From contig SHYY01000010.1 in assembly GCA_009692555.1 (NCBI GenBank), positions 20 through 64,019 on the forward strand: DNA of 64,000 bases. Reading direction: 5' to 3'. A program made the position numbers and the translations under genes. This stretch comes from Myxococcales bacterium (GTDB lineage Bacteria; Myxococcota_A; Polyangia; Palsa-1104; SHYY01). Below the pieces are notes generated by a model, which saw only the letters and a list, made by a program, of their open reading frames with translations, made no database searches and was not told the origin of the DNA. Of the stretch, positions 33,769 to 48,920 are shown piece by piece (position 1 is the first letter of the stretch; the number at the start of each line of letters is the position of its first letter).

Positions 33769-36567
33769 ATGACGGCCAGAACGATGACAGCGACGGTGAC
33801 GATGGCCCTGGCGATCGGCCTCTTCCCCCTGCCCGCGCGTGCGGAGACCCCCAAAGCCGCACCACCCGCCGCCAAGGCGACCGCGCCGGCGCCCACCAAG
33901 GTGGTGACCGTCGAAGGGATCACCGAATACCGCCTCGACAACGGGCTCCGCGTCCTGCTCTTCCCCGACGCCACCAAGCCGACCGTCACCGTCAACGTCA
34001 CCTACTTCGTCGGCTCGCGGCACGAGGGCTACGGCGAGTCGGGGATGGCCCACCTCCTCGAGCACCTGCTGTTCAAGGGCACCGCCACCCGCGACAACAT
34101 CCTCGGCCTCCTCCAGGCGCGCGGCGCGATGGCCAACGGCACCACCGACTACGATCGCACCAACTACTACGAGGTGCTCCCGGCGATCCCCGGCAACCTC
34201 GAGTTCGCGCTCGAGCTGGAGGCCGACCGGATGCTCGGCAGCCGCATCGCCAAGGTCGACCTCGACAAGGAGTTCACCGTCGTGCGCAACGAGTTCGAGA
34301 TGGGCGAGAACCAGCCCGATCAGGTGCTCGAGGAGCGGATGCTCTCCACGGCGTTCCTCTGGCACAACTACGGCAAATCGCCGATCGGATCGCGGGCCGA
34401 TATCGAGCGCGTGCCGATCGAGGCGCTGAAGGCGTTCTACCAGCGCTACTACCAGCCCGACAACGCCATGCTGGTGATCGCCGGAAAGGTCGATCCCGCC
34501 GCCGCGCTGGCGCTGGTGCAGAAGAACTTCGGCGGGCTGCCTCGCCCGTCGCGCAAGCTCGTCCCCACCTACACCGTCGAGCCGGTCCAGGACGGCGAGC
34601 GCTCGGTGACCCTGCGGCGGACCGGCGACGTCGCGGTGATCGGCGTCGCCTACCACGCGCTGCCCGGCTCGCACGAGGACTTCGTCGCCGAGCGCGCGCT
34701 GGTGGACGCTCTGGTGGCGAAGCCGTCGGGGCGGCTCTACAAGGCGCTGGTCGAGAAGGGCCTCGCCGCCGAGGTGCATGGCGACGCCTACCCGCTCACC
34801 GATCCCGGGTTCATCGACCTCTTCGCCTCGGTGCGGACCGGACAGTCGGTGGAGAAGGCCCAGGCCGCGCTGGTTCGCACCATCGAGGAGCTCGGCGCCG
34901 CCACCGGTCCGGGCGCGCTCACCGACGAGGACGTCAAGCGCTTCCAGGCCAAGGCGCTGAAGGGATGGGAGCTGGCGATGACCCGCAGCGATCGGATCGG
35001 CGTCGAGCTCAGCGAGTACGCGGCGCAGGGCGACTGGCGGCTCCTGTTCGTCTACCGCGATCGCTTGAAGCAGCTCGATCTGGCGCGCATGCGCCGGGTG
35101 GCCGGGCAGTTCCTGAAGCCGACCAACCGCACGCTCGGGCAGTTCCTGCCCACCAAGAGCCCCGATCGCGCACCGCTCCCGGTGCCGGTCGACGTGGCCG
35201 CGCTGGTGAAGGGCTACGTCGGGCAGGCCGACCTGGCGCAGGGCGAGGAGTTCGCCGCCACCCTCGACAACATCGAGAAACGCACCGAGACGACTGCGCT
35301 CCCGAACGGGATGAAGCTCGCGCTCCTCTCGAAAAAAACCCGCGGCGGCTCGGTCAAGCTGGTGCTCCAGCTTCACTTCGGCAGCGAGAAGGATCTCGCG
35401 GGCAAGCTCGGGGCGGCGGGGCAGGTGCGCGCGATGCTCGTCCGCGGGACGCGCAAGCACACCTACCAGCAGATCAAGGACTCGATGGATCGCCTGAAGA
35501 TGGAGATCCAGGGCGGCGACGACGGCCCCGGATCGGGCAGCCCCGACGCAGCGGCGCTGTCGGTGACCACCGTGCGTGAGCATCTCCCCGAGGTGATCGC
35601 GCTCCTCGGCGAGCTGACCTTGGAGCCGATCTTCCCGAAGGATCAGTTCGAGATCCTGCGCAAGGAGGGGCTCGCCGGCCTCGAGAAGCAGCTCCAGAAC
35701 CCGCAGATGCGCGCCTTCATCGCGCTCCAGCGGAAGGCCAATCCCTACCCGAAGGACAACGTCCGCTACGTCCCCACCGTCGAGGAGCGGATCGATCGCC
35801 TGAAGGCGGTCAAGGCCCCCGAGATCGCCGCGTTCCACAAGGCGTTCTGGGGCGGCAACCACGCCGAGCTGGCGGTGGTCGGCGACTTCGACGCCGGAGA
35901 GGTCAAGGCGGCCGCCACCAAGGCGTTCGGCGCGTGGAAAAGCCTGAAGCCCTACCAGCGCATCGCGTCGACGTTCCAGGCCGGCCTCCCGGGCGGCGAG
36001 GAGACGATCCAGACCGACGACAAGGAGATGGCGATGATCGTCGTCGGGAACGCGCTCGACCTGAAGGACGACGACGCCGACTACCCGGCGGCGCGGATCG
36101 GCAACTACGTGCTCGGCGGGGGCTTCAAGTCACGCCTGGTCGACCGCCTGCGGCAGAAGGAGGGGCTCTCCTACGGCGCCTTCTCCGGAATCAGCGCCGA
36201 CGCCCGCGATCGCTTCGGCTTCTTCTACGCAGGCGCGATCTGCGCCCCGCAGAACGCCGACAAGGCGATGGCGGCGATGCTCGAGGAGATCGACCGCCTG
36301 CGGAAGGATGGAGTTCCGGCGCCCGAGCTGGAGGAGGCCAAGAAGGGCTACCTCCTGTCATTCGACAATCGCCTGGCGCAGGACGAGTACGTGGCGGGGC
36401 AGCTCGCGAGCAACCTCCACCTCGATCGCACCTTCGACTACCACCGCAAGACCAACGCACGGATCCGCTCCATGACCCCGCAGGAGCTCGCTCCGGTCCT
36501 CGCCAAGGTCCTCGCTCCCGGGTGCCTGGTGAAGGTCAAGGCGGGGAACCTGAAGCCGGCGAAGTGA
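33769..36567 (+). CDS. secreted M16-family (pitrilysin/insulinase) zinc peptidase, double-module
   Basis: Start at ATG 33769 (MTARTMTATVTMALAIGLFPLPARA, signal peptide), giving 932 aa. HLLEHLLFKG (HxxEH) in the first half and a second M16-like half. Confidence 0.88.
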   Translation: MTARTMTATVTMALAIGLFPLPARAETPKAAPPAAKATAPAPTKVVTVEGITEYRLDNGLRVLLFPDATKPTVTVNVTYFVGSRHEGYGESGMAHLLEHLLFKGTATRDNILGLLQARGAMANGTTDYDRTNYYEVLPAIPGNLEFALELEADRMLGSRIAKVDLDKEFTVVRNEFEMGENQPDQVLEERMLSTAFLWHNYGKSPIGSRADIERVPIEALKAFYQRYYQPDNAMLVIAGKVDPAAALALVQKNFGGLPRPSRKLVPTYTVEPVQDGERSVTLRRTGDVAVIGVAYHALPGSHEDFVAERALVDALVAKPSGRLYKALVEKGLAAEVHGDAYPLTDPGFIDLFASVRTGQSVEKAQAALVRTIEELGAATGPGALTDEDVKRFQAKALKGWELAMTRSDRIGVELSEYAAQGDWRLLFVYRDRLKQLDLARMRRVAGQFLKPTNRTLGQFLPTKSPDRAPLPVPVDVAALVKGYVGQADLAQGEEFAATLDNIEKRTETTALPNGMKLALLSKKTRGGSVKLVLQLHFGSEKDLAGKLGAAGQVRAMLVRGTRKHTYQQIKDSMDRLKMEIQGGDDGPGSGSPDAAALSVTTVREHLPEVIALLGELTLEPIFPKDQFEILRKEGLAGLEKQLQNPQMRAFIALQRKANPYPKDNVRYVPTVEERIDRLKAVKAPEIAAFHKAFWGGNHAELAVVGDFDAGEVKAAATKAFGAWKSLKPYQRIASTFQAGLPGGEETIQTDDKEMAMIVVGNALDLKDDDADYPAARIGNYVLGGGFKSRLVDRLRQKEGLSYGAFSGISADARDRFGFFYAGAICAPQNADKAMAAMLEEIDRLRKDGVPAPELEEAKKGYLLSFDNRLAQDEYVAGQLASNLHLDRTFDYHRKTNARIRSMTPQELAPVLAKVLAPGCLVKVKAGNLKPAK

Positions 36568-36568
36568 G

Positions 36569-37042
36569 CTAGCGGGTCCAGGGGCCGGAGCGACCGCCGC
36601 TCTTGGCCTCGAGCTGGACGTCGACGATCCGCATCCCTCGATCGATCGCCTTGCACATGTCGTAGACCGTCAGCGCCGCCACCGTCACCGCGGTCAGCGC
36701 CTCCATCTCCACGCCGGTGCGATCATGGGCCTGCACGGTCGCGCGGATCGCGACGCGCGAGTTCGCCTCGTCGACCGTGAACGCGACGTCGACTCCGGTG
36801 ATCCGCAGCGGGTGGCAGAGGGGGATCAGCTCGGCGGTGCGCTTCAGCCCCTGGATCGCCGCGACGCGCGCGATGCCGAGCACGTCGCCCTTGCCGATCG
36901 TGCCTGCGGCGACCCGCTGAAGCGTCTCGCGGCTCATTTCAACAGCGCCCGAGGCGATCGCCGCACGATCGCTCTCCGGCTTGCCACCGACGTCGACCAT
37001 GCGCGCCGCGCCCTGCTCGTCGAAGTGGGTGAAATCGGCCAC
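36569..37042 (-). CDS. moaC: cyclic pyranopterin monophosphate synthase
   Basis: 157 aa. HFDEQGAARMVDVGGK...GDVLGIARVAAIQGLKRTAELIPLCHPL...MEALTAVTVAALTVYDMCKA is a canonical MoaC sequence. Confidence 0.93.
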   Translation of the reverse strand: MADFTHFDEQGAARMVDVGGKPESDRAAIASGAVEMSRETLQRVAAGTIGKGDVLGIARVAAIQGLKRTAELIPLCHPLRITGVDVAFTVDEANSRVAIRATVQAHDRTGVEMEALTAVTVAALTVYDMCKAIDRGMRIVDVQLEAKSGGRSGPWTR

Positions 37043-37052
37043 AGGGTGCCCG

Positions 37053-37631
37053 CTACGAGGCCGCGCGGGCGAGCACGTAGTACTGGCCGATCGGCGTGCC
37101 GAGCCGGGTCGCCGCGCCGATCACCACGTCCTTCGAGACGCGGCGGTTGTAGTCGTGCATGTCGCGGTAGACGAAGAACGAGATGCCCGAGCGGTTCGAG
37201 CGCGGCGCTGGCCAGCCCGGCGGACCCGACGGTGGGACCCGGGTGTAGTCGAAAAGGACCTCGTTCGGGCGCTCGCTCATCACCTCGCAGGTGAAGTAGC
37301 CCGGCCCGGTGGCGAAGGAGGTCGAGCCGACGTTGATCCCCACCACCGCGCCGGCGCGCCGGACAAAGTGCTTCTCGAAGTGCGTGAAGGCGGGCAGCGA
37401 GTTCTTCCCGCAAAACCGCACCGGCTGGTCGTCGGGCGCGGCCACCGGCACGAAGTCCTCGAGGCCCAGCCGCGGCGCGGGCGCGGAGACCTCCCACAGC
37501 TTCGCCAGCTGCGACTTCGAGAGGGCGCGACACTCGACGACGCGCTGCTCGCTTGCCAGCGCATCGAGGTGCGCCTCGATTGTTGTCAGGGTGACATCGG
37601 GGGTGTCGAGGAGGTTTGCCAGCTGCGCCAT
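37053..37631 (-). CDS. hypothetical protein (co-directional with moaC)
   Basis: ATG 37631 gives 192 aa (MAQLANLLDTPDVTL...) with ordinary composition. The longer ORF extension is Arg/Pro-rich. I recognise no motif with confidence. Confidence 0.55.
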   Translation of the reverse strand: MAQLANLLDTPDVTLTTIEAHLDALASEQRVVECRALSKSQLAKLWEVSAPAPRLGLEDFVPVAAPDDQPVRFCGKNSLPAFTHFEKHFVRRAGAVVGINVGSTSFATGPGYFTCEVMSERPNEVLFDYTRVPPSGPPGWPAPRSNRSGISFFVYRDMHDYNRRVSKDVVIGAATRLGTPIGQYYVLARAAS

Positions 37632-38026
37632 GGACGGGAGCATACCCGACCTTGGACCGCCCTGCCGGATGAGCCTGATCGACCCGAGCGATGTCGAGCC
37701 TGACCTCGATGCGAGGTGGAATTTGCCAGCGGCCGGAGGTTGCCCGTACCATCCCGGCGACGATGGCGGCGTGACAGTCGACAAAGTGCCTGGAGGTCCG
37801 TCTCGCGACGGGCGGGGCGCCGCTCGACCTCCAGACCGCGACCGGGGCCTCCTGGCAGCACGCCCCCGGCCCGCCCCCCGAGGAGCTGAAGACCCCGGCG
37901 CTGTGGAGCCGGATCGACGCGCGCTGGCCGGACCGCCGGGCGATCCTGCATGAGGCCGGCGCGCACCTGGGGCGCTGGCTCTACGGGGAGCGCACCGAGG
38001 CATTCCTCGTCGAGCAGGCGCGCGCG

Positions 38027-39664
38027 GTGGGGGACGCGGGGCCGGCGCGGCGGGTGGATCTGCGGGTGCCGAAGGAGCTCGCCGAGTGGCCGTGGGAGCT
38101 GGCCACCCTGGAGAAGCTCGGGCCCCCGGCGGTCCACCCGAAGCTCACCGTGGTGCGGGTCAGCGAGCTCGGCAGCCCGTCGCTGACGCCGCCGGCCCAG
38201 CTGGTGATCGACCTGATCGGGGTGCACCACGACGACCCGCACCCGTGGGAGCCGCTCAAGACGCGGCAGGAGATCGAGCGGATCCGCCAGGAGATCGAGG
38301 CGGCAGGCAAGCGCGGCCGCTACGCCGTCACCGTCGACGCGCGGGGCGGCTGGGATGCGCTGGTGCAGCGCTACGAGGAGACCGGACCTCCCCACCTCTT
38401 CCACTTCGCCGGGCACGGGTTCGACGGCGGGCGCGGCCTGGTGTTTGCCGGCGAAGACGGCGGGCCCGAGGAGATCACCGCCGAGCAGGTGGCGATGGTC
38501 CTCCGCCAGTCCGTCCGCGGGCGCCAGACCCGGCTGGCGTTCCTCAATGCGTGCTCCTCGTCAGCGACGGGAAAGCCGCGGCCCTACCAGCCGTTCGGCG
38601 CGCTCGGGGCGATGCTGATCCAGCACGGCGTCCCGATGGTGATCGGCCTGCAGACGGCCCTCGACGACAGCGAAGCGCAGAGCCTCGCCGCGGCGTTCTA
38701 CCAGGGGGTCGCCAACGGCGACTCGGTGGACTGCGCGATCCAGCGCGCGCGGAGGGATCTCTACCTCGACGGGGGCGGCAGCGTGTCGTGGGCCTTCGTC
38801 CACCTCACGGTCTCGGGGACGCCGTCGCCGCTGTGGCGACAGCCGGGCTACACCGCCGCGGGAGCGCCCTCGGCTTCGCTGTGGTCGTTCGCCCACCGCG
38901 AGCAGCGCCAGCAGCTCGATCTCTACCTCGGGCGGCGCGACCCGCTGGTGGTGGTGATCGGCGGCGAGGTGCATGCCGGCCATCGCTACGTCGCCGAGCG
39001 GCTGCGCTTCGATCTCGGGCGCGCGGGCAGCTCGCTCTACTACCCGGTGGCGGTGATGCGCTGGTTCAGCCCGGGCGAGAAGCAGCTCTCGCGCACCCTG
39101 CTCGCCGGCGGGATCGCTCGCGCCCTCGATCTCGACGACGAGGGGACGCGGGAGGGGCTGGAGAAGCGCATCGCGCGGAAGATCGCCGACTGCTGCGAGG
39201 AGGGGAAGGTGCTGGTGATCGACCTCGAGGAGCTGCTCCAGCCAGCGGACCCGGTGGAGGCCGACGCGGTGGTGGAGCTGGTGCAGGAGCTGTGGACCAG
39301 TTTGATGAACCTCGCCCGTCGCGGCGATCGGCTGCCGGTGTTCCTGCTGCTCTCGATCGCCTGGCCGCAGGAGCTGGCGCCGAGCGACCGCCGCGCCGCG
39401 CGGGCCCGGGAGAACCGGCAGAAGATCCAGGCGACGGTGGAGCGGCTGCGCGGGAAGCCGCGGCTGGAGGGGCGGGTGCGGGTGGAGGTGCTCAAGGAGC
39501 TGCGGCCGATCGAGGAGCCGGAAGTGGCGGACTTTCTCGAGCAGGTGCTGGAGATCGACCCCGACGCGGCGGAGGCGCAGGCGCGCAGCATCGTCGACGT
39601 CGGTGACAACGAGACCATCCTCGCGCGCATGACCAAGGTGCTCGAGGAGTGGGAGGAGGGCTGA
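38027..39664 (+). CDS. CHAT-domain caspase-like protease with C-terminal inactive P-loop-like region
   Basis: 545 aa from the first canonical start (GTG 38027). Motifs are LAEWPWELA, catalytic His in HLFHFAGHG (38414-38416) and catalytic Cys in AFLNACSS (38552-38554). Protein-like coding signal continues upstream in frame to 37775, so the true start is probably earlier (see findings). Confidence 0.85.
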   Translation: MGDAGPARRVDLRVPKELAEWPWELATLEKLGPPAVHPKLTVVRVSELGSPSLTPPAQLVIDLIGVHHDDPHPWEPLKTRQEIERIRQEIEAAGKRGRYAVTVDARGGWDALVQRYEETGPPHLFHFAGHGFDGGRGLVFAGEDGGPEEITAEQVAMVLRQSVRGRQTRLAFLNACSSSATGKPRPYQPFGALGAMLIQHGVPMVIGLQTALDDSEAQSLAAAFYQGVANGDSVDCAIQRARRDLYLDGGGSVSWAFVHLTVSGTPSPLWRQPGYTAAGAPSASLWSFAHREQRQQLDLYLGRRDPLVVVIGGEVHAGHRYVAERLRFDLGRAGSSLYYPVAVMRWFSPGEKQLSRTLLAGGIARALDLDDEGTREGLEKRIARKIADCCEEGKVLVIDLEELLQPADPVEADAVVELVQELWTSLMNLARRGDRLPVFLLLSIAWPQELAPSDRRAARARENRQKIQATVERLRGKPRLEGRVRVEVLKELRPIEEPEVADFLEQVLEIDPDAAEAQARSIVDVGDNETILARMTKVLEEWEEG

Positions 39665-40581
39665 TGCCCGGACCAGGCGACTTCGACATCTACCGCGGCG
39701 ACGGGCAGTTCCGCCCCGAGGCGCACCGCCAGCTCCCCGAGACCCCGGCGCTGTTCGAGGAGCGGGGGGCCTACCTTCCCGATCGCGACCTGGTCGAGGC
39801 GGTGAACATCGCGCTGTGCGTGGGGAGGCCGCTCCTGCTCACCGGCGAGCCGGGCTGCGGCAAGACGCGCCTCGCCTGGAGCCTGGCGACCGAGCTGGGT
39901 CTCGACGCGCCGCTGCAGTTCTTCACCCGCTCCACCTCGCGCGCGCAGGACCTGCTCTACACCTTCGACGCGGTGCAGCGCTTCCACGACATCCAGATGA
40001 AGAGCGCGCGCGCCGACGATCCGCACAACTACGTGCAGTTCGAGGCGCTCGGCCGGGCGATCGTCGAGGGGAAGCGGCGGGTGGTGCTGATCGACGAGAT
40101 CGACAAGGCCCCGCGCGACTTCCCGAACGACCTGCTGAACGAGATCGACCGGATGTCCTTCGAGGTGCGCGAGCTCACCGGCGACGATCGCGTGCGCAGC
40201 GCCAAGGTGCGGCCGATCGTGGTGATCACCTCCAACAGCGAGCGCCAGTTGCCGCTGCCGTTCCTGCGGCGCTGCGTGTTCCACTACATCGGCTTTCCGG
40301 AGCGGGACAAGCTGATCCGGATCGTTGAGGAGCGGCTCTCGGGCGACTCCCTCGACGGGGATCTGATCAAGGCGGCGGTCGACAAGTTCCTGGCCGTGCG
40401 AAAGATCAAGGGGCTGACCAAGAAGCCAGCGACGGGGGAGCTGCTCACCTGGGTGCATGCGCTGCAGGTGCGCGGCGTGGCCGCCCTGGCGCTGCGCGAA
40501 TCGCCCCAGGCAGCCGTGCCCCTCTGGCAGGCCCTCCTGAAGGACCGAGACGACCTCCGCCGTCTCCAGGAAGCGACCTGA
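39664..40581 (+). CDS. MoxR-type AAA+ ATPase
   Basis: 305 aa. ATG 39664 overlaps the CHAT stop (TGATG), with GGGAGGAGGG upstream. Walker A is LLLTGEPGCGKT (Lys codon 39862-39864) and Walker B is VVLIDEIDKA. ITSN...LPLPFLRRC provides sensor/Arg-finger-like motifs. Confidence 0.88.
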   Translation: MPGPGDFDIYRGDGQFRPEAHRQLPETPALFEERGAYLPDRDLVEAVNIALCVGRPLLLTGEPGCGKTRLAWSLATELGLDAPLQFFTRSTSRAQDLLYTFDAVQRFHDIQMKSARADDPHNYVQFEALGRAIVEGKRRVVLIDEIDKAPRDFPNDLLNEIDRMSFEVRELTGDDRVRSAKVRPIVVITSNSERQLPLPFLRRCVFHYIGFPERDKLIRIVEERLSGDSLDGDLIKAAVDKFLAVRKIKGLTKKPATGELLTWVHALQVRGVAALALRESPQAAVPLWQALLKDRDDLRRLQEAT

Positions 40582-40586
40582 GGCGG

Positions 40587-40940
40587 GTACCTCGACGCAG
40601 AGATTTCGACGGATTCGGCCGCCGCCGCATCCCCGTCCGCGTCGTTGCTCCTCAGTCACTTGCACCCGGTAAGGGCCCGCGAATGGGCAAGTCGATCGAT
40701 GATCGCGATCCGAGGCGCCCGGATGGCGAGGCGCGACGACGGAGAATACTCTCTGTATTCGACCGACGAGCTTCCCCCCAAGACTACAGAAGGGGGGCAA
40801 GCCCCCCGAAGCCAGCCGGGATGCATCGGCCGCGAGGGCGATCGAGTTGTCCGTTCGCGGGCCCTAGGCTCCTTCGTCGCGCCTCGCGGACGGCGCGCGG
40901 CAGCACCCTCGGTCCTGTCAAAACCTCTGCGTCGAGGTAC
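40587..40940. repeat. 354-bp insert-like segment bounded by a perfect 16-bp (24-bp imperfect) inverted repeat
   Basis: GTACCTCGACGCAGAG at 40587-40602 and its exact reverse complement at 40925-40940. The repeat extends to 24 bp with 2 mismatches (40587-40610 / 40917-40940). It fills almost the whole MoxR-to-vWA intergenic gap. Confidence 0.8.
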
Positions 40941-40958
40941 TCGTGAGAGGCCGGTTGA

Positions 40959-43900
40959 ATGAGCCGCGCTGATCGGAAGGCCAGCGGAAGGGGTCCGCTC
41001 GCCGACCTGCTGGTAGGGCTGAGGCTCCGCGGGATGACGGTGGGGCCCGACGACGCGGCGCGGGTGGTGGCGGTGTTCCGTCACGCGGCCGGGTGGTCGC
41101 ATGCGCGGCGGGTGCGGGCGCTGAAGGCGCTGCTCGGGCGCAACGACGACGAGCGGCGACTGATTGATCAGCTCTCGCCGTTCCTGTTCGTGGAGGCGCA
41201 CCGGCGGGAGGAGGGGCAGGCGGACGACGGGGGAGGCGCAGCGATGGGGGAGGCGGAGGGAGCACTCGCGAGCCGCGCCGGGACGCGCACGACGGGGGCG
41301 CAGGTCGGCGATCGGAGCGATGGAAGTTCAGGATCGAGGAGGGCTCCCTGGTCGCTGATCGTGCTCGGGTGCGCGCTGGCCGTGGCTGTGGCCGTGCTGG
41401 CGCTGGAGATTCCGTGGTCTCGGCCGTGGCCACCCGCCTCGGGTGACGGAGGCGTCGTCGATCTCGCACCGCTCGAGGACCTGTTTCGGCCGGCCGACGA
41501 CGGTGGCCTGCCGGACCTTCTGGATGGCGGCGCGCCGGCGATCGCCGAGGGCGGGTCGGGCCCCCCTCCCCTCCCGGTCTGTCAGACCGCCTTGCCGCTG
41601 CCGCCGCGGCGGTGGCCGTTCCTGCTCTTCGGCGGGACCGGCGTGCTGCCGGTGATCGCCCTGGCACTCCGTCGTCGCCGCTTTGCGCGCCAGCAGCGCA
41701 ACATCGACGCCCTCGCCCGTTCCGAGGGGCCGCGCACCTGGCGGCTGGAGATCCCCGCGGAACAGGCGCCCGATCCGCTCGACGCGACGGCGGTGCGCGA
41801 GGCGGCCTTCCAGCTCACCGCGCCATCGGCCGACGTGGTGGCCCCGTGGCTCGATCCCACCGGCACGGTGCAGGCGACCGCGCGGCGGGCCGGCCAGCTG
41901 GTGCTCCGCTTTGCCTCGCAGCGCGAGCATCGACCGCTGCTCTTCGTCGAGGACGTGGGGGTCTCGATGGCGCGGTGGCCGGATCATGGCCGCCAGATCG
42001 TGGAGGCGATCCGGCGCCAGGGCGGCGAGGTGATCCACTGCTTCTTCGACGGCGCGCCGGCGCTGACCGCCCGCCAGCGCGACCTCGCCGGCCGGCTCTC
42101 GCTCGAGCAGCTGCTCGCCGACGAGGGCGCACCGGTGGTGGTGCTGCTGGGCGACGCGGCGGGCCTGGAGCGGAGCGCCGTCGACAGCGCCACCTGGACC
42201 GCCGCGCTCGGCAACGCGCTGTGGCTGCACCCCCGGCCGGCCGAGCTGTGGGGTCCGGGCGCGCGCGCCGTCGCCGCCTGCCTGCAGGTGGTGCCTGTGA
42301 GCGAGGAGGGGCTGAGGCGCCTCGGCACCCCGCGACCCGATGGACTGGGGGACCTGCCCCGTCGCTGGACGGCCCCCCGGCCGGCGGGCAGCGACCCGCT
42401 CTCGTGCCTCGAAGCGTGGCGTGGGGCGGTCGGCGACGACGCCTTCTTCTGGCTCGCCGCCGGGGCGGTGCTCGATCGGATCGGCGGCCTGACAGCGCGG
42501 GCGTGGTGGGCGCTCCGCAGCAACGGGATCGCGCCGGCCCCCTGGCATCTCGTCGAGCGGGTGTGGGAGCTGCGCGGCCTGCGCGTCGCCAGCGACGGCA
42601 CGGTGGCTCTCCCGGGAAATCTCCGCGAGGCGCTGATCGAGGCGCTCGGGCGCGAGCGGCCGGACCTGCGCGCGCAGGTGGTGGCCTGGGCGAAGTCGCT
42701 GATCGCGGTGGACCTCGGGCGTCTGCCGGCGGACAGTCCGGCGCGGGTGGCGGCCCGGGCGGGGCAGGCGCGGCTGGCGCTGGTGGATCCGGCGCAGCGC
42801 GGCGAGGCCCGCCGTCTGGCGCAAGCGCTGGCGAACGATGGCTACGGCAACCTGCTGGCAGGGGCGGCCAGCGACGAGGAGCGGGGCGAGTGGCAGGTCG
42901 ATCTTCGACGGGCCGCGGGGCTGCGGCGGTGGCAGATCGGCGTCGCCGCGCTCGGGGCGGTGGCGATCCTCGCGGCGCTGCCGTTCCTTGCCAACCCGAC
43001 GCTGTGGACGCGGATCGTGCCGCCGAAACCGGACTTCCAGGTGCTCTCCTCCTCGCGCGTCTGGAACGGCAGCGCGATCTACCCGGTGTCGCCTGACGCC
43101 GCGCTGGTCTTCTGCGATCGCCGCCAGCTGGCGCGCAAGGTGTACGCCCGGGCCGGGAACGACGTCGTCCTCCTGGACGCCGCGGGCGACCCGGCGGTGT
43201 GGACACTCCCGGCGGACTCCCCGCTCTTCCCCGGCGTGAGCGTCGCGCAGTACGCCGACCTCTACCTCGGCTACGAGCAGCGCCCGACCGGCGGGCCGTG
43301 GAAGCTGAACGTGTTCGACGTGGGCGTCGCGGTGCTGAGGGCCAGCGCGACGCCACGGGACGCGGCGCCGGGAGTGCCACCGGGCACCTTCGTGGCGCTC
43401 ACCTGGGAGGTCCCCGCGCGCAACCTGCTCGAAAAAGCGCGCAAGCCGCCTCCGAAGTGGGACATCCTCCGCGACGGAAAGCAGATCGGGCGCAACATCA
43501 TCGACGGAACGCTGTTCTGGGTGGATGCTCCGCAGGGCGCCGGCCCCTGGCGCTACCAGGTGACCGCGGTGGCGGCCGAAGGACGACCCTACCGGAGCAA
43601 CGAGGTGCTGGTGAACGCGCCACTCGTGCCCATTCCCGTGGACAGGAACGTCGGGTGGCTGCTGCAGCCCGCCCTCGAAAAGCGACGCGGGTACGTCCTC
43701 ACCCTCGACGGCGCCGAGGAGCGCAGGAAGCGCATCGAGCTCTTGCCCGGCAATCACGCCTTCGGGTGGTCGCGGCCAGACGTGACCTGCCGCCGGCCGT
43801 GGCGCGACGAGGTGGTCATTGAGCGCGGCAAGGAGAGCAAGCTCCAGGTCCCGACCGACGAATACTTCCTCGCGGCCTGCCAGCCGGTGCGGGCCGGCGA

Positions 43901-45530
43901 TTGCCCGGGTGGCAAGGTGCGCTGCGGCGACCTGTGCGTCTCCAGCGACAACCCGCTCCACGCCGGCGGCTGCTTCAAAGTGGTGCCCGAGGTCTCCAAG
44001 GCGGCCGCCATGACCGATCCGCTGGAGATCGGCCTGCCAGGCGATGGCGTGGGGGGCGCGCTCTATCGACTCTACTATTCCTGGGACACCAACCGGAGCC
44101 ACGTGACCACCCACGCGATCGAGCGGAAGGTGCGCGGCAGCAGTGCCGGGGGGCCTCCACTCGACCTCGCAGGGCCAGAAGCGGCGGCGGCGGTGGAGCG
44201 CGGCTGGTCCGACGCCGGCAGGAGGAGCTTCATCACCCACCTTGCCCTGGGGTGCAACAGCGACGGGAGGCTGCTGACCAGTGGCCAGAAGCTGACCTGC
44301 CGCAAGGGCGCGGCGCCGCAGATCGAGACGTGGAATGGAGGAAACGTGCCGGGCGAGGTGCAGGCAGGCTCCGTGGGGCGACGGTGGACCGCCTACTGCG
44401 CGAGCCTGGCGCCGAGAGACGTGGCCGCCGAGATCGTCGCAGCCCGCCGCTTGATGAGGTCCCTGCAGTTCGACGAGGCGCTCTATCACCTCAAGGCAGC
44501 CACGCGGCTTGACCCCGATCCCCGGTCGGCGCAGGAGGCGATCGGCCTGATGATCGACATCGGGGGCGCCCGCGTCGAGGGTGGGCAGTTCGCCGAGGCC
44601 GCCGTGGCGTACCAGATCGCCGAGGGGACGATCCGGCAGCAGTACGACCGCAAGAACTCGACGCCCGAGATGCGGCGCATGCAGACGACGGCGCTCTTCG
44701 CGCTGGGCAATCTGTATCAGAAGCTCGGCCAGATTCCGGAGGCGCGCGTCGCATTCCTCCAGGCGGCCGAGGGGTATCGCCTCCTCCGCGCGCCGACCGA
44801 GAGCGCCGTGGCGCTGACGCTCCTGGCGGAGCTCGATGACCGCGCCGGCGAAGCGGGCAATGCCAGCCAGCACCGCAACGACGCCATCGCGCTCTATAAG
44901 AGCCTGGGAAATCGCAGCGAGATCGAGCGGTTGCAGGCTCTCAATGCCCGCCAGGGTCCGGCGCCGTGCGCGGGCGGCGAGACGCGCTGCGGGGACTTCT
45001 GCGTCCATCTCGACCGCGACCCGTTTCACTACAAGGAATGCTTCACCATCGCGCCGAGCCTCACCGAGAAGAGCGCGCGCGGGTACAACCCGCCGCCGTG
45101 GTTCGAATTCGAATTTGATGGAGTGCGGCGCCGCCGATTCGAGCAGGCCGCCTACTACCAGCTCCGATATCGCTGGTCCAACGACCGACTCCGCATCGAG
45201 GTGGGGGACTACGGCAACCGTCGCTTGTTTGCCGAATCCCTCGAATACGGCCAATTGCGAGCCCGCATCCATGGGATGGGAAAGCTGCGCACCTTCACCG
45301 ACTATGCGATCTTCTGCCTCCCCGGTGGTGGCGTCGCCGACGACCACGCCACGCGCTACCGGCACGTCTACCGCGAGACCGCCCGCGGGGCGACCTGGAT
45401 GACCGACGGCGACTGGCAGCCCCGCCAGACGAAGGAGCTGGGCGACGCGGCGCGCGACGCCTGGCCCACCGAATCACTGGTAAAAGAGTGGACTACCAAG
45501 TGTAAACGCGAGGCGTCGGCGAAGCCCTGA
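40959..45530 (+). CDS. giant three-pass membrane protein: CoxE-type N-domain, vWA-like domain, then extracytoplasmic beta-rich, Cys-rich and TPR region
   Basis: 1523 aa.
- aa 12-80: LADLLVGLRLRGMTVGPDD...LIDQLSPFLF resembles the N-terminal helical region of CoxE-type vWA proteins.
- Hydrophobic helices at aa 130-151, 219-237 and 658-678.
- aa 295-450: LDPTGTVQATARRAG...LLFVEDVGVSM...FFDG resembles a vWA domain with a partly degenerate MIDAS.
- aa 1155-1330: TPR-like.
- 16 Cys residues after the third helix. Confidence 0.85.
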   Translation: MSRADRKASGRGPLADLLVGLRLRGMTVGPDDAARVVAVFRHAAGWSHARRVRALKALLGRNDDERRLIDQLSPFLFVEAHRREEGQADDGGGAAMGEAEGALASRAGTRTTGAQVGDRSDGSSGSRRAPWSLIVLGCALAVAVAVLALEIPWSRPWPPASGDGGVVDLAPLEDLFRPADDGGLPDLLDGGAPAIAEGGSGPPPLPVCQTALPLPPRRWPFLLFGGTGVLPVIALALRRRRFARQQRNIDALARSEGPRTWRLEIPAEQAPDPLDATAVREAAFQLTAPSADVVAPWLDPTGTVQATARRAGQLVLRFASQREHRPLLFVEDVGVSMARWPDHGRQIVEAIRRQGGEVIHCFFDGAPALTARQRDLAGRLSLEQLLADEGAPVVVLLGDAAGLERSAVDSATWTAALGNALWLHPRPAELWGPGARAVAACLQVVPVSEEGLRRLGTPRPDGLGDLPRRWTAPRPAGSDPLSCLEAWRGAVGDDAFFWLAAGAVLDRIGGLTARAWWALRSNGIAPAPWHLVERVWELRGLRVASDGTVALPGNLREALIEALGRERPDLRAQVVAWAKSLIAVDLGRLPADSPARVAARAGQARLALVDPAQRGEARRLAQALANDGYGNLLAGAASDEERGEWQVDLRRAAGLRRWQIGVAALGAVAILAALPFLANPTLWTRIVPPKPDFQVLSSSRVWNGSAIYPVSPDAALVFCDRRQLARKVYARAGNDVVLLDAAGDPAVWTLPADSPLFPGVSVAQYADLYLGYEQRPTGGPWKLNVFDVGVAVLRASATPRDAAPGVPPGTFVALTWEVPARNLLEKARKPPPKWDILRDGKQIGRNIIDGTLFWVDAPQGAGPWRYQVTAVAAEGRPYRSNEVLVNAPLVPIPVDRNVGWLLQPALEKRRGYVLTLDGAEERRKRIELLPGNHAFGWSRPDVTCRRPWRDEVVIERGKESKLQVPTDEYFLAACQPVRAGDCPGGKVRCGDLCVSSDNPLHAGGCFKVVPEVSKAAAMTDPLEIGLPGDGVGGALYRLYYSWDTNRSHVTTHAIERKVRGSSAGGPPLDLAGPEAAAAVERGWSDAGRRSFITHLALGCNSDGRLLTSGQKLTCRKGAAPQIETWNGGNVPGEVQAGSVGRRWTAYCASLAPRDVAAEIVAARRLMRSLQFDEALYHLKAATRLDPDPRSAQEAIGLMIDIGGARVEGGQFAEAAVAYQIAEGTIRQQYDRKNSTPEMRRMQTTALFALGNLYQKLGQIPEARVAFLQAAEGYRLLRAPTESAVALTLLAELDDRAGEAGNASQHRNDAIALYKSLGNRSEIERLQALNARQGPAPCAGGETRCGDFCVHLDRDPFHYKECFTIAPSLTEKSARGYNPPPWFEFEFDGVRRRRFEQAAYYQLRYRWSNDRLRIEVGDYGNRRLFAESLEYGQLRARIHGMGKLRTFTDYAIFCLPGGGVADDHATRYRHVYRETARGATWMTDGDWQPRQTKELGDAARDAWPTESLVKEWTTKCKREASAKP

Positions 45531-45546
45531 ACTGCCAAGGAGCATC

Positions 45547-46443
45547 ATGCCCAAAGTATTTCTCTCTCACGCCGGCTCCGATACCGCCAGTGCGCGCCAG
45601 GTGGCCGACCTCCTCGCGGAATCCAGCGTCGAGGCGATCCTCGACCGCGGCACAATCGGCCCCGGCGACAGCACGGCCACCTTCATGAACCAGGGGCTGG
45701 GGACTGCTGACTACTGCCTCCTCCTGTGGTCCGAGGCCGCCTCCACGCGGCCGTGGGTGACGATAGAATGGGAGGCGGCGCTCTATCGCTCGGGGCGCGA
45801 GGCGCGCGCATTCCTGGTCGTCGGGCGGCTGGAAAACCGCGAGGTACCGCCCCTCCTGGCGCCCCGGCTGTACGTCGATCTCTTCCCGGATCCGCGGCGC
45901 GGCATGGACGAGCTGCTCAAGCACTGGCACCTCGACCGGACCGCCGAGCGGCGCTCCGAGCATCCGGTGGGCGCCCCCGCCCTCGAGCCCACCGCCGACG
46001 CGGCCGGCGCCCCGCTCTACCTCAGCTCCGAATTGTTCGGCCTGACCATCCCGCTCCGCCTCTCCCTCGACGTGCCCGCGGGGGTGCATCTCGACCGCCT
46101 GATCAATGACCTGAAACTCCCCCTCCGCTTCGACCACCAGGGGCGCATCGGAATGACCTTCGAGTACGCACTCGCCCTCGCTGATCGTCCCCTCGTCCGC
46201 GGCCGCCCGCTGGCCGCCCAGAGCGTCCGCCCGGGGGACGTCCTGGAATTGCAAGTCCAGGTCACGCCCTTCGCCGCCGTGGCGCCCAGGGAAGGAGCCG
46301 CCCGCCCGCTGGTCTTCCGCGGCGGTGGCGGCGGCCAGCGGACCGGCGCGCACGCTCCCGACGACGCGCAGCAGGCCGCGCGCGAGGCCCTCCACGCGGC
46401 CCTGGCCACCGCCGGCCTCCTCGCAGCGCCCGGAAAGCCCTGA
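45547..46443 (+). CDS. TIR-domain protein with uncharacterised C-terminal domain
   Basis: 298 aa. AAGGAG lies 5 nt upstream of the start, and the gene starts 16 nt after the giant gene's stop. KVFLSHAGSD...YCLLLWSEAASTRPWVTIEWEAAL is a TIR signature. The candidate catalytic Glu codon is 45766-45768. Confidence 0.85.
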   Translation: MPKVFLSHAGSDTASARQVADLLAESSVEAILDRGTIGPGDSTATFMNQGLGTADYCLLLWSEAASTRPWVTIEWEAALYRSGREARAFLVVGRLENREVPPLLAPRLYVDLFPDPRRGMDELLKHWHLDRTAERRSEHPVGAPALEPTADAAGAPLYLSSELFGLTIPLRLSLDVPAGVHLDRLINDLKLPLRFDHQGRIGMTFEYALALADRPLVRGRPLAAQSVRPGDVLELQVQVTPFAAVAPREGAARPLVFRGGGGGQRTGAHAPDDAQQAAREALHAALATAGLLAAPGKP

Positions 46444-46491
46444 CCCATCGACCGCCCCTTCAAGATCGTTGTCGCCTGACCCTCCCCCCTA

Positions 46492-46524
46492 CCCTCTCCC
46501 GCAGGCGACGCAGGCGGGAGAGGG
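46492..46524. terminator. GC-rich hairpin after the TIR gene (REP-like, same stem motif as 10311-10334)
   Basis: CCCTCTCCCGC-aggcgacgcag-GCGGGAGAGGG, a perfect 11-bp stem 49 nt after the TIR stop. No clear U-tract. Confidence 0.35.
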
Positions 46525-46901
46525 GGGCGATCGAGGGACAATCTGGACCAGTTTGGTGACGCACTGGAGTGTCGATCCTCCCCGCGAGATCAATCCGGTC
46601 ACTCGCGCCTCCCTCCCCTCCCTCCCCCAAAAACAAGGGGTGTCCAGCCGTCCAATCGTTCCCCATCCGCCCTCCGGACCCCAAAACCAGGTGGGGGCGC
46701 AGTGTGCGCGGAAGGGGGTGTTGCGCAGCGCGCAGCGCTTCGGCCGGCCTGGGGGCCGAATGCAAGCGGAACATCAAGGCCCGACGTGCCGCGGGCCCCT
46801 GCGGCCCCGGCGAAACCGGCCGTCCCCCGGACGCGCACTCCACCGCGCCCCCACGCCTCCCGCCCCAAGAAAGAAGTGCAGAAGTGCTACCCTCCGCCCC
46901 C

Positions 46902-48920
46902 ATGGACCGCCCTTTCAAGCTCGTCTCGAACTACACCCCGCGCGGCGATCAACCCAAAGCCATCGCCGAGCTGGTCGCCGGCGTGCGCCGCGGCGACCAG
47001 CATCAGGTGCTCCTCGGCATCACCGGCAGCGGCAAGACCTACACCGCCGCCTGCGTGATCGAGGCGGTCCAGAAGCCGACCCTGATCATCGCCCACAACA
47101 AGACCCTCGCCGCCCAGCTCTGCTCCGAGTTTCGCGACCTCTTCCCCGAGAATGCCGTGCAGTACTTCGTCTCCTATTACGACTACTACCAGCCCGAGGC
47201 CTACGTCCCCTCGTCGGACACATTCATCGAAAAGGACTCCCAGATCAACGAAGAGATCGACCGCATGCGCCACGCCGCGACACGCTCGCTCCTCACCCGC
47301 CGCGACGTGATCGTCGTCGCCTCGGTGAGCTGCATCTACGGCATCGGCGATCCCGGCTACTACAAGGGAATGGTCCTCTGCCTCGACGTCGGGCAAACTG
47401 TCAAGCGCGACGCGGTATTGCGCCGCCTGGTCGACCTCCAGTACCAGCGCAACGACATGGATTTCCACCGCGGCACCTTTCGCGTCCGCGGCGACGTGGT
47501 CGATATCTTTCCCGCCGACGAGGACAAGCTGGCCTTTCGCGTGGAATGGTTCGGCGACGAGATCGATTCGATCGCTGAAGTCGACCCGATGCGCGGCAAG
47601 GTGCTGAGGAAGCGTACCGAGATGAGCGTCTTCGCCGCCTCGCACTACGTCACGCCCACCGACGCGCTGGTCAAGGCGATCGAGGCGATCAAGATCGAAT
47701 TGCGCGAGCGCCTCCAGGAACTGGGCGCGGCGATGAAGCTGGTCGAGAAGCAGCGCCTCGAGCAGCGCACGATGTTCGACCTCGAGATGCTCGATCAAAT
47801 GGGCCATTGCACCGGCATCGAGAACTATTCGCGCCACCTCGCCGGGCGCGCCGCCGGGGCACCGCCGTCGACGCTGATGGACTACTTCCCGAAGGATTAT
47901 CTCCTCCTGGTCGACGAATCGCACCAGACCGTTCCGCAGGTGTCGGCGATGTACAAGGGTGACCGCGCCCGCAAGGAGACGCTGGTCAATTACGGCTTTC
48001 GCCTGCCGTCGGCGCTCGATAATCGGCCGCTCAAGTTCGAGGAGTGGGAGGCCCACGTCGGGCAGGCGATCTACGTCTCGGCCACGCCGGGTGATTACGA
48101 ATTGCAGAAGGCCCAGGGGGTCGTCGTCGAGCAGGTGATCCGGCCGACCGGATTGCTCGATCCGGAGATCGAGGTGCGGCCGGTGAAGGATCAGGTCGAT
48201 GACCTGCTGGGCGAGATCCGCGACCGGGTGGAGCGAAAAGAGCGCGTCCTGGTGACGACGCTGACCAAGCGAATGGCCGAGGATCTGACCGAGTACTACG
48301 CCGAGCTGGGGGTGCGGGTGCGCTACCTCCACGCCGACGTCGACACCCTCGATCGCATCGAGATCCTGCGCGATCTCCGACGGGGGGAGTTCGATGTGCT
48401 GGTCGGGATCAATCTGCTCCGCGAGGGGCTCGATCTGCCCGAGGTGTCGCTGGTGGCGATCCTCGACGCCGACAAGGAGGGTTTCCTGCGCGCCGAGCGC
48501 TCGCTGATCCAGACCTGTGGCCGCGCCGCCCGCAACGTCCGCGGCAAGGTCATCATGTACGGCGACCGGATCACCCGCTCGATGAAGGCGGCGATCGATG
48601 TCACCGATGCGCGACGCGTGATCCAGGCCGCCTACAACAAGGCGCACAAGATCACCCCGAAGACCATCGTGCGGGCGATCCACGCCGATCTGCGCGGGAC
48701 CGTCGACAACGCCGACTACCACGATATTCCGGAGGTGGCGGCGATGGCGGCGGAGGACCGCCCGGACTACGATCTGCCATCGCTGAAGGAGCTTCCGGGG
48801 CGCATCGCGGCGCTGAAGCGCGAGATGCACGCCGCGGCCGAGGACCTGGAGTTCGAGAAGGCGGCGGCGATCCGCGACCGGATCAAGTCGCTCGAGGAGC
48901 TCGAGCTGCGGCTGCGGTGA
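46902..48920 (+). CDS. uvrB: excinuclease ABC subunit B
   Basis: 672 aa from ATG 46902. [21 protein letters not shown]...[12 protein letters not shown]...helicase motifs...C-terminal [11 protein letters not shown] (UVR domain). Confidence 0.96.

What the first reader, a model, noticed from the sequence alone, without database searches (positions are those of the whole stretch)
37632..46524. CHAT protease - MoxR AAA+ - giant transmembrane vWA/TPR sensor - TIR: four-gene operon that looks like an uncharacterised membrane-coupled conflict/signalling system
Seen in the sequence: four co-directional genes have operon-type junctions.
- The CHAT stop and the MoxR ATG overlap (TGATG at 39662-39666), preceded by GGGAGGAGGG.
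- The giant gene's stop is 16 nt from the TIR ATG, which has AAGGAG upstream.
- The only large gap is filled by an inverted-repeat-bounded insert.
- The block is bounded by a divergent region facing the moaC operon and by a strong hairpin before uvrB.
- The catalytic residues look intact: CHAT His (HFAGHG) and Cys (LNACSS), MoxR Walker A/B (GEPGCGKT, VLIDEIDKA), and the TIR W-x3-E motif (PWVTIEWE).

Established knowledge:
- CHAT domains are caspase-fold proteases.
- MoxR ATPases act on vWA partners, as in the CoxD/CoxE paradigm.
- Prokaryotic TIR domains are NAD+-cleaving or signal-producing immune effectors.
- vWA-MoxR cassettes linked to CHAT/TIR-type effectors have been predicted computationally as NTP-dependent 'ternary' conflict systems (Aravind laboratory). 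To my knowledge none has been characterised experimentally, and they are not among the commonly named defence systems.

Inference: here the vWA component is embedded in a three-pass membrane protein with a roughly 845-aa Cys-rich/TPR ectodomain. The system could therefore couple an envelope or extracellular cue (phage adsorption, kin contact, cell-wall damage) through MoxR-driven remodelling to a protease/NADase death or dormancy output.
Basis: partly seen in the sequence, partly recalled or inferred. Interest (0 to 1): 0.92.

Follow-up and report, generated by a model that had tools for sequence, protein, structure and literature searches.

The report
Membrane-anchored MoxR–vWA–CHAT system plus TIR
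This four-gene block is a real, largely intact example of a predicted but never tested bacterial "ternary" conflict system (caspase-like protease, MoxR ATPase, membrane-spanning vWA receptor), and its extra TIR gene belongs to a family that usually sits directly beside caspase-like proteases.

Summary
Four co-directional genes lie at 37763/38027-46443 in a Myxococcales MAG, and the junctions and catalytic motifs are as described.

The core is not a new kind of system. It fits the "iSTAND" MoxR-vWA ternary system that Kaur et al. (eLife 2020) described by computation:
- The CHAT protein carries a C-terminal inactive STAND domain (Pfam PF19995).
- The ATPase is MoxR-like (AAA_5).
- The 1523-aa protein belongs to a family of about 1000 clusters. 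Members share a CoxE-like N-domain, two TM helices, a divergent vWA domain, a helical linker, a third TM helix and a variable outer domain.

The order CHAT-iSTAND, MoxR, vWA recurs in four further complete loci and in part in three more. In one of them a diversity-generating retroelement mutates the outer domain.

The TIR gene is absent from those loci. It belongs to a separate TIR plus ubiquitin-like family. In 11 of 20 informative loci that family lies directly downstream of a CHAT protease. I found no description of this pairing.

Three local oddities:
- an in-frame TGA at codon 4 of the ancestral CHAT start;
- a 377-nt hairpin insert where homologues have overlapping genes;
- a Ser-to-Gly change in the vWA metal-binding motif.

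Function is untested. Interest is moderate.

The parts
37723..37752 (+). Promoter-like site (TTGCCA, 18 nt, TACCAT) in the divergent intergenic region, 10 nt upstream of ATG 37763
   Evidence: the only sigma-70-like match in 37000-47000 (shuffles give a mean of 0.2). This is a consensus match only.
37763..37774 (+). Probable ancestral start of the CHAT gene, ATG GCG GCG TGA: an in-frame stop at codon 4
   Evidence: Homologues start MARISKLGLRVQL or M-DQPLFFQI at this position. The frame is open and conserved from 37775.
37775..39664 (+). CHAT-iSTAND gene (629 codons of open frame; NCBI annotates 545 aa from GTG 38027). CHAT domain about 38246-38773, His 38414-38416, Cys 38552-38554. Inactive STAND domain about 38897-39337, with a degenerate Walker A, GGEVHAGHR, at 38960-38986
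   Evidence: Pfam CHAT 2.4e-18 and iSTAND 3.1e-3. Homologues match iSTAND at 5e-4 and 4e-5. Alignment A1. NCBI MSP59415.1.
39664..40581 (+). MoxR-like AAA+ ATPase, 305 aa, full length. Walker A 39844-39867, Walker B 40084-40110, TSNSE 40228-40242, RR 40261-40275
   Evidence: AAA_5 1.7e-10. Nearest solved sequences are midasin AAA domains and NorQ. 45-69% identical to the ATPases of five homologous cassettes. NCBI calls it 'MoxR family ATPase'.
40582..40958 (.). 377-nt insert that folds as one long imperfect hairpin (outer arms 40571-40610 and 40917-40956; perfect 16-nt core GGTACCTCGACGCAGA). MITE-like. It occupies a junction where homologues have overlapping genes
   Evidence: dG -217, z -8.3. 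No Rfam match. Single copy in the window. The MoxR and vWA genes overlap in L001, L002, L004, L005, L007 and L009.
40959..45530 (+). Three-pass membrane vWA component, 1523 aa, in order: conserved N-terminal helical domain (40992-41198); TM1 41355-41411; acidic outer loop; TM2 41613-41669; cytoplasmic divergent vWA plus helical linker (41679-42929; EDVGVSM within 41943-41969; LLGDAAG 42144-42164); TM3 42936-42992; 845-aa outer region (42993-45527) with two CxGGxxRCGDxC motifs (43902-43937, 44967-45002) and TPRs (about 44466-44903)
45547..46443 (+). TIR plus ubiquitin-like (YukD-like) protein, 298 aa. TIR 45556-45915 with WxxxE Glu74 at 45766-45768. Beta-grasp-like region about 46012-46281. Conserved F-R-G within 46312-46335. 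Conserved C-terminal helix
   Evidence: TIR_2 1e-21. Family of at least 69 clusters. YukD matched in 8 of 20 members, best 4.5e-6, window 0.21. Alignment A6. Closest solved sequences are AbTIR-type NADases.
46492..46526 (+). GC-rich hairpin (11-bp stem) between the TIR gene and uvrB. It has no T tract
   Evidence: z -2.1. The terminator scan did not call it.

Best explanation
The block is an iSTAND-type MoxR-vWA ternary conflict system (sensu Kaur, Burroughs, Iyer and Aravind 2020) whose vWA component is a three-pass inner-membrane protein. It has been joined by a TIR plus ubiquitin-like gene that is a habitual partner of CHAT proteases.

Proposed working, all inferred:
1. The large extracytoplasmic Cys-rich/TPR region binds a ligand in the envelope, such as a phage part, a foreign cell-surface molecule or cell-wall damage.
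2. The change is passed through TM3 and the helical linker to the cytoplasmic vWA domain.
3. The MoxR hexamer, docked on the vWA domain, uses ATP to remodel the complex that includes the CHAT-iSTAND protein.
4. This switches on the caspase-like protease.
5. The protease acts on the TIR-Ubl protein, most simply by cutting near the conserved F-R-G that separates the Ubl domain from a C-terminal helix.
6. The freed TIR consumes NAD+ or makes a nucleotide signal, which leads to growth arrest or death.

Shown here: gene order, domain identities, intact catalytic motifs, conservation of the three-gene core, variability of the outer domain, and the CHAT/TIR-Ubl association.
Inferred: every step of signal flow, and its direction.
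For: Core classification:
- CHAT plus Pfam iSTAND was found in the window protein (3.1e-3), L001 (5.1e-4) and L002 (4e-5, above the Pfam cut-off). It is also on record for L009.
- The Walker A Lys is replaced (GxxxxG[HQ]R) in all three aligned proteins.
- The ATPase is AAA_5/MoxR.

vWA identity of the giant protein:
- Its module (residues 241-657) defines a family of 1026 clusters at E<1e-3 and 41 at E<1e-30.
- VWA_CoxE is matched in 7 of 28 close members, best 5.9e-6, and in P0002 at 1.4e-3.
- Most close members read EDVSxSM, the vWA DxSxS (MIDAS) metal-site motif, in their sequences.
- A [ST]DG-type motif follows the next long strand.
- AF2 with a 30-sequence alignment gave pLDDT 87.5 and an alpha/beta fold. 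The invariant Asp lies at a strand end.
- The best PDB match is the NorQD complex chain G.

Conservation and match to the published system:
- The gene order CHAT-iSTAND, MoxR, vWA-TM-variable is complete in L001, L002, L005/6 and L009. It is cut by the contig end at L007, L004 and L008.
- The C-terminal domains of family members (FGE-sulfatase in 8 of 28, PEGA, OmpA, TPR, Calx-beta) match the published list for iSTAND systems (PMC7159879 section 20).

Sensor role of the outer domain:
- In L001 the C-terminal FGE-sulfatase domain is a DGR target. In the repeat pair, 14 of 15 core mismatches are A in the template copy.

TIR link:
- There is a 16-nt gap with a ribosome-binding site.
- The TIR-Ubl family lies at most 36 nt downstream of a CHAT gene in 11 of 20 informative distinct loci, and CHAT is present in 14 of 24.
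Against: - No experiment exists for any iSTAND ternary system in the literature I could search.
- The window protein itself gives no vWA hit, and its MIDAS motif is DxGxS.
- The structural match to NorD is weak (E 8e-3, TM 0.30-0.34), and I inferred rather than checked that chain G is NorD. The other hits are generic Rossmann-like folds.
- No TIR gene is adjacent to the cassette in any of the seven related loci.
- The TIR-Ubl loci contain no MoxR or vWA genes, so this combination was seen only once.
- Kaur et al. assign sensing to the iSTAND module and effector roles to the vWA C-terminal domains, which is the reverse of my assignment.
- The in-frame TGA, the hairpin insert and the Ser-to-Gly change could mean that the locus is impaired.
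Confidence: 0.7

Rival explanations
1. The components are the same but the signal runs the other way between TIR and CHAT. The TIR-Ubl protein makes an NAD-derived messenger that switches on the CHAT protease, and the protease is the executioner. This is what happens in type IV Thoeris.
For: Rousset et al. (bioRxiv 10.1101/2024.10.24.620036) showed that a TIR protein produces N7-cADPR, which activates a caspase-like, arginine-specific protease. They also reported that their TIR is unlikely to be a caspase-activated NADase. Kaur et al. treat TIR in ternary systems as a signal generator. The CHAT/TIR-Ubl adjacency is compatible with either direction.
Against: The window TIR matched no Thoeris model above its cut-off. 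The best Thoeris match is ThcB4 at 6e-4, 18.7 bits against a cut-off of 220, and PADLOC gave only domain-level hits. The type IV Thoeris caspase has an N-terminal caspase domain plus a C-terminal ligand-binding domain. Here CHAT is fused to iSTAND, or sits at the end of a protein of about 1200 aa. The gene order is also reversed.
Confidence: 0.25
2. The block is a housekeeping MoxR-vWA chaperone module that matures or inserts a cofactor into an envelope protein, as NorQD, CoxDE, RavA-ViaA or the Bat operon do. It would not be a conflict system.
For: Characterised MoxR-vWA pairs are maturation chaperones (PMC13036017 and PMC9976466, listed). The flanking genes are housekeeping: M16 peptidase, moaC and uvrB. 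There is a faint TPR_BatC match at 0.093.
Against: The module is fused and linked to CHAT, iSTAND and TIR. The C-terminal domain is swapped between close relatives. A DGR hypermutates it in L001. The cassette lies next to three tyrosine recombinases in L005. No candidate client enzyme is in the operon.
Confidence: 0.05
3. The locus is a decaying copy and no longer works as a system.
For: There is an in-frame TGA at codon 4 of the ancestral CHAT start, and no canonical start follows until codon 89, inside the conserved region. A 377-nt structured insert breaks a junction where all homologues have overlapping genes. The first MIDAS Ser is Gly.
Against: All four reading frames are otherwise intact over 8.7 kb at 70% GC. 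The 84 residues upstream of GTG 38027 are still conserved at the protein level. The MoxR and giant proteins are full length. Every catalytic motif is retained. P0002 and P0003 also lack the first Ser (DxAxS, DxGxS), so that change is not specific to this copy. The TGA could be a MAG consensus error, or the start could be CTG 37790.
Confidence: 0.15

Closest known systems
iSTAND MoxR-vWA ternary conflict systems (Kaur, Burroughs, Iyer, Aravind, eLife 2020; PMC7159879)
   Same: Three core genes are shared: a caspase-like peptidase fused to an inactive STAND module, a MoxR ATPase without long extensions, and a vWA protein. The vWA protein has an N-terminal helical domain, TM segments and a variable C-terminal region that follows a TM segment. 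The published spread over proteobacteria, including multicellular forms, also fits, as do TIR as an associated domain and the link to DGR-diversified FGS domains in relatives.
   Different: Here the two N-proximal TM helices lie between the N-terminal helical domain and the vWA domain. The outer region is an 845-aa Cys-rich/TPR assembly with no detectable relative. The TIR is a separate TIR-Ubl gene rather than a fusion, and no shared adaptor (EAD) domain was detected. The class has only been predicted, not tested.
DGR-associated MoxR ternary systems (Dore et al., bioRxiv 10.1101/2023.09.22.558884; also held as PMC10907252)
   Same: A MoxR ATPase lies upstream of a protein whose C-terminal lectin-fold domain is hypermutated. 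A peptidase gene and TIR_2 are in the neighbourhood. The authors propose that the variable protein is the sensor, and some of their targets are membrane-spanning.
   Different: Those loci are mostly VMAP-type or lack a recognisable vWA domain. The window itself has no DGR and no lectin-fold domain. Only its relative L001 does.
Type IV Thoeris (TIR plus caspase-like protease; Rousset et al., bioRxiv 10.1101/2024.10.24.620036)
   Same: A TIR protein and a caspase-family protease are encoded together and act in one pathway.
   Different: It is a two-gene system with no MoxR, vWA or iSTAND. It uses a different protease family and architecture, a short TIR without a Ubl domain, and the opposite gene order. 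No model-level match was found.
NorQ-NorD, CoxD-CoxE and RavA-ViaA MoxR-vWA chaperone pairs
   Same: An AAA_5/MoxR ATPase is encoded next to a vWA partner. The best structural match of the modelled domain is a NorQD chain. Family members match VWA_CoxE.
   Different: Those pairs mature metalloenzymes and have no protease, TIR or variable outer domain. The sequence similarity here is marginal.

Membership tests
iSTAND MoxR-vWA ternary system | Third component carries an inactive STAND NTPase module | tested here: met
   Pfam PF19995 iSTAND was matched at 3.1e-3 (window), 5.1e-4 (L001) and 4e-5 (L002, 24.5 bits against a cut-off of 24). It is also on record in L009. The Walker A Lys is replaced by His or Gln in all three aligned proteins. 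The window protein alone is below the Pfam cut-off.
iSTAND MoxR-vWA ternary system | Adjacent MoxR-clade AAA+ ATPase with intact ATPase motifs | tested here: met
   AAA_5 1.7e-10. Walker A, Walker B, sensor 1 and the RR motif are invariant in six orthologues. NorQ and midasin are among the closest solved sequences. PGAP names it 'MoxR family ATPase'.
iSTAND MoxR-vWA ternary system | Adjacent vWA-domain protein | tested here: inconclusive
   The window protein gave no vWA hit. At family level VWA_CoxE is matched in 7 of 28 members, best 5.9e-6, and in P0002 at 1.4e-3. Most close members carry DxSxS in the EDVSxSM motif, while the window has DxGxS. The AF2 model (pLDDT 87.5) is alpha/beta. The top PDB match is NorQD chain G, at only E 8e-3 and TM 0.30-0.34. 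A profile search of PDB sequences found nothing.
iSTAND MoxR-vWA ternary system | [quoted passage not shown] | tested here: met
   The same order is complete in L001, L002, L005/6 and L009, and in part in L007, L004 and L008. C-terminal domains in the family include FGE-sulfatase, PKD, Calx-beta, TPR, PEGA and OmpA.
iSTAND MoxR-vWA ternary system | Acts in defence or conflict | not testable with these tools
   There is context evidence only: a DGR in L001 and recombinases in L005. No system-level PADLOC match was found.
VMAP ternary system | Third component has a VMAP-C domain | tested here: not met
   No VMAP family was matched in the Pfam scan at E up to 1. iSTAND was matched instead.
Thoeris (types I-IV) | The TIR (ThsB-like) protein and the cognate effector match the family models | tested here: not met
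   NCBIfam gave ThcB4 at 6e-4, 18.7 bits against a cut-off of 220. PADLOC ThsB matches were 0.007 or weaker. There is no SLOG, Macro or type IV-style caspase effector.
TIR domain NAD+-cleaving enzymes | TIR fold with the catalytic Glu of the WxxxE motif | tested here: met
   TIR_2 1e-21. The window has W70 followed by E74, and E74 is invariant in 20 family members. The family profile matches AbTIR at 2.1e-6. Enzymatic activity was not tested.
CHAT (caspase-fold) proteases | CHAT domain with a His-Cys dyad | tested here: met
   CHAT 2.4e-18. His214 and Cys260 are invariant in the alignment. The N-terminal strands of the domain lie upstream of the annotated start, so integrity depends on where translation starts.

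The most novel reading that the evidence does not exclude
The TIR plus ubiquitin-like protein is a dedicated partner cassette for CHAT proteases, found directly downstream of a CHAT gene in 11 of 20 informative loci. I found no description of this pairing. In this window the cassette has been plugged into a membrane-spanning ternary system. The four genes would then form an outside-in immune receptor: a periplasmic ligand is read by the vWA protein, MoxR converts that into protease activation, and the protease controls a TIR through its Ubl or C-terminal tail, or is controlled by it.
Probability: 0.3. Interest if true: 0.8.

Novelty: new member of a known kind. Interest (0 to 1): 0.5.

Why it matters
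Ternary MoxR-vWA systems are common in social and filamentous bacteria and share domains with animal and plant cell-death machinery, yet none has been tested. This locus is compact (four genes, 8.7 kb), so the four genes could be cloned together for a test. Its predicted topology puts the variable domain outside the cytoplasm, so one can ask directly whether a bacterial caspase/TIR pathway can be triggered from the envelope. The CHAT/TIR-Ubl pairing gives a second, simpler two-gene system in which to test the protease-TIR relationship. The DGR-diversified relative suggests that the outer domain binds ligands.

Tried and rejected
- Exact look-ups of the TIR and giant proteins in the contig index found nothing, so the source contig could not be fetched.
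- A word-indexed homology search with the three-sequence module alignment returned nothing, not even the query sequences. The likely cause is Ala/Arg-rich words.
With A2 it returned only the locus already held, so no survey of isolate genomes was possible.
- AF2 on the 417-residue module with 3 sequences was uninformative for the vWA part (pLDDT below 50).
- Profile searches of PDB sequences with the module found no vWA.
- Rfam found nothing in 36000-48000.
- The hairpin insert has no second copy in the window.
- BLAST found no significant internal repeat in the outer region; only the short Cys motif recurs.
- The NCBIfam match to 'MadB family AAA-type ATPase' (2.8e-19, far below the cut-off) could not be traced in the literature.
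- VMAP, Thoeris and SAVED-CHAT membership were considered and rejected on model scores.

Full report
**What is in the sequence**

The window has about 70% G+C. It matches a Myxococcales MAG: the giant, CHAT, ATPase and TIR proteins are identical to NCBI entries from one 65,214-bp contig.

Four co-directional ORFs occupy 38027-46443.
- TGATG at 39662-39666, preceded by GGGAGGAGGG.
- A 16-nt gap with AAGGAG before the TIR ATG.
- A 377-nt gap between the ATPase gene and the giant gene, filled by nested inverted repeats.

Pfam confirms CHAT (2.5e-18), AAA_5 (1.7e-10), TIR_2 (1e-21) and TPR in the giant protein. MoaC and UvrB flank the block.

**Corrections to the anatomy**

Position 37632 is the start of a divergent 197-aa gene on the minus strand that has no family match.

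The CHAT frame is open from 37775. Its first 84 residues align well with the N-termini of two homologues of 608 and 630 aa. That stretch holds no ATG, GTG or TTG. An ATG at 37763 is followed by TGA at codon 4. NCBI starts the protein at GTG 38027, which would remove conserved residues. I cannot tell whether this reflects a MAG error, a CTG start at 37790 or a recent nonsense change.

**The third component is an iSTAND protein**

A Pfam scan of the extended CHAT protein and its two closest homologues gives PF19995 'inactive STAND' at 3.1e-3, 5.1e-4 and 4e-5. A more distant cassette has CHAT plus iSTAND on record. The P-loop reads GxxxxG[HQ]R, so the Walker A lysine is lost.

[quoted passage not shown] 2020. 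Those authors also note several features that apply here (PMC7159879):
- caspase-like domains at the iSTAND N-terminus;
- a CoxE-like four-helix N-domain in the vWA protein;
- TM segments in 28% of cases;
- FGS domains in 22% of cases;
- peptidoglycan-associated domains that follow a TM segment.

**The giant protein**

The word-indexed search found only two relatives, and they share residues 1-72 and 221-700.

A profile of residues 241-657 was searched against 1.84 billion representative proteins. It found 1026 clusters at E<1e-3 and 41 at E<1e-30. In nearly all of them the module starts 170-300 residues from the N-terminus and is followed by C-terminal regions of very different length.

Evidence bearing on vWA identity:
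- Among 28 close members, 7 match VWA_CoxE (best 5.9e-6) and 8 end in FGE-sulfatase. Others carry OmpA, Calx-beta, TPR, TIG or CHAT. A distant member carries PEGA.
- Most close members read EDVSxSM, the vWA DxSxS metal-site motif. The window reads EDVGVSM.
- AF2 with a 30-sequence alignment gave pLDDT 87.5 and an alternating strand-helix fold. The invariant Asp lies at a strand end.
- Foldseek's best PDB match is a chain of the NorQD MoxR-vWA complex, but only at E 8e-3 and TM 0.30-0.34.

I therefore treat vWA identity as well supported for the family and not proven for this protein.

For topology, hydropathy gives three TM segments. The loop after TM1 is acidic. RRRRFARQQR follows TM2 and RRAAGLRR precedes TM3. 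This places the vWA module in the cytoplasm and the last 845 residues outside it.

**Conservation of the cassette**

- CHAT-iSTAND, AAA_5 and the vWA-TM protein occur in that order in L001 (Polyangiaceae MAG), L002, L005/L006 (a marine metagenome) and L009. The order is also seen, cut by contig ends, in L004, L007 and L008.
- In every locus where both genes are present, the ATPase and vWA genes overlap. Only the window has a spacer. The spacer folds as one hairpin (dG -217 kcal/mol, z -8.3), matches no Rfam family and has no second copy in the window. It looks like a small inserted element.
- The MoxR protein and the giant protein are both full length on either side of it.
- In L001 the C-terminal FGE-sulfatase domain is paired with a reverse transcriptase gene and a bAvd gene. 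A 119-nt repeat pair there has 14 of 15 core mismatches as adenines in the template copy, which marks an active diversity-generating retroelement. That argues that the outer domain is a ligand binder. This is the model Dore et al. proposed for related systems.

**The TIR gene**

No TIR gene is adjacent to the cassette in any related locus. The window TIR belongs to a separate family of at least 69 clusters, each about 290 aa. Family members comprise a TIR domain with an invariant Glu in the WxxxE position, a YukD-like ubiquitin-fold region (8 of 20 members match, best 4.5e-6), a conserved F-[RK]-G and a conserved C-terminal helix.

I fetched 35 loci for this family, 29 of them distinct.
- In 11 of the 20 with at least 900 nt upstream, a CHAT gene ends within 36 nt of the TIR start on the same strand.
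- In 14 of 24 informative loci a CHAT gene is present somewhere in the locus.
- The usual partner is a protein of about 1200 aa with a C-terminal CHAT domain and sometimes TPRs.
- No MoxR or vWA gene occurs in these loci.

PADLOC has no system-level model for the pair, and I found no paper that describes it. The TIR gene is therefore plausibly part of the window's system through its link to the CHAT protease, but the four-gene combination was seen only once.

**Mechanism**

My preferred reading runs as follows: an outer-domain ligand is sensed, the vWA/MoxR pair remodels the complex, CHAT is activated, and CHAT acts on TIR-Ubl.

The direction between CHAT and TIR is open. Type IV Thoeris shows a TIR product activating a caspase-like protease. 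Kaur et al. place sensing in the iSTAND module.

A housekeeping chaperone role is unlikely, given the protease, the TIR, the domain swapping and the DGR. Partial decay of this copy cannot be excluded.

**Verdict**

The finding is a real and accurately described example of a computationally defined, experimentally untested class. It is not a new kind of system.

Noticed in passing
window 37763-38026: The CHAT gene's conserved N-terminal 84 codons lie upstream of the annotated GTG start. The frame has no canonical start codon, and the ATG at 37763 is followed by TGA at codon 4.
   Followed up: partly
window 40582-40958: A 377-nt MITE-like hairpin (dG -217 kcal/mol, z -8.3) is inserted where the MoxR and vWA genes overlap in all homologous loci. 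It has no Rfam match and no second copy in the window.
   Followed up: partly
L001 13079-13197 and 14473-14591: This is a DGR variable/template repeat pair: 14 of 15 core mismatches are A in the template copy. It targets the FGE-sulfatase end of the giant protein's homologue and lies next to RVT_1 and bAvd genes.
   Followed up: yes
L010-L044 (for example L023 6372-10861, L010 4365-8855): A recurrent two-gene pair: a protein of about 1200 aa with a C-terminal CHAT domain, followed within 36 nt by a TIR plus YukD-like gene. It was seen in 11 of 20 informative distinct loci and is not a named system in PADLOC v2.
   Followed up: yes
L005 951-3675: Three consecutive tyrosine recombinase genes lie immediately upstream of a homologous CHAT-MoxR-vWA cassette, which suggests that the cassette is carried on a mobile element.
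   Followed up: no
window 37053-37646 (- strand): The divergent 197-aa gene between moaC and the system has no Pfam match.
   Followed up: no
window 43902-43937 and 44967-45002: Two copies of a CxGGxxRCGDxC motif in the outer region. There is a faint match to the myxobacterial MXAN_6577-like Cys-rich family (6.6e-4). The rest of the 845-aa region has no detectable relative, apart from a short Ig-like segment shared with P0003.
   Followed up: partly
window 45500-47500: GC skew turns negative (-0.14 to -0.17) across the TIR gene and the start of uvrB, whereas it is positive across the three upstream genes. This may hint that the TIR gene was acquired separately.
   Followed up: no
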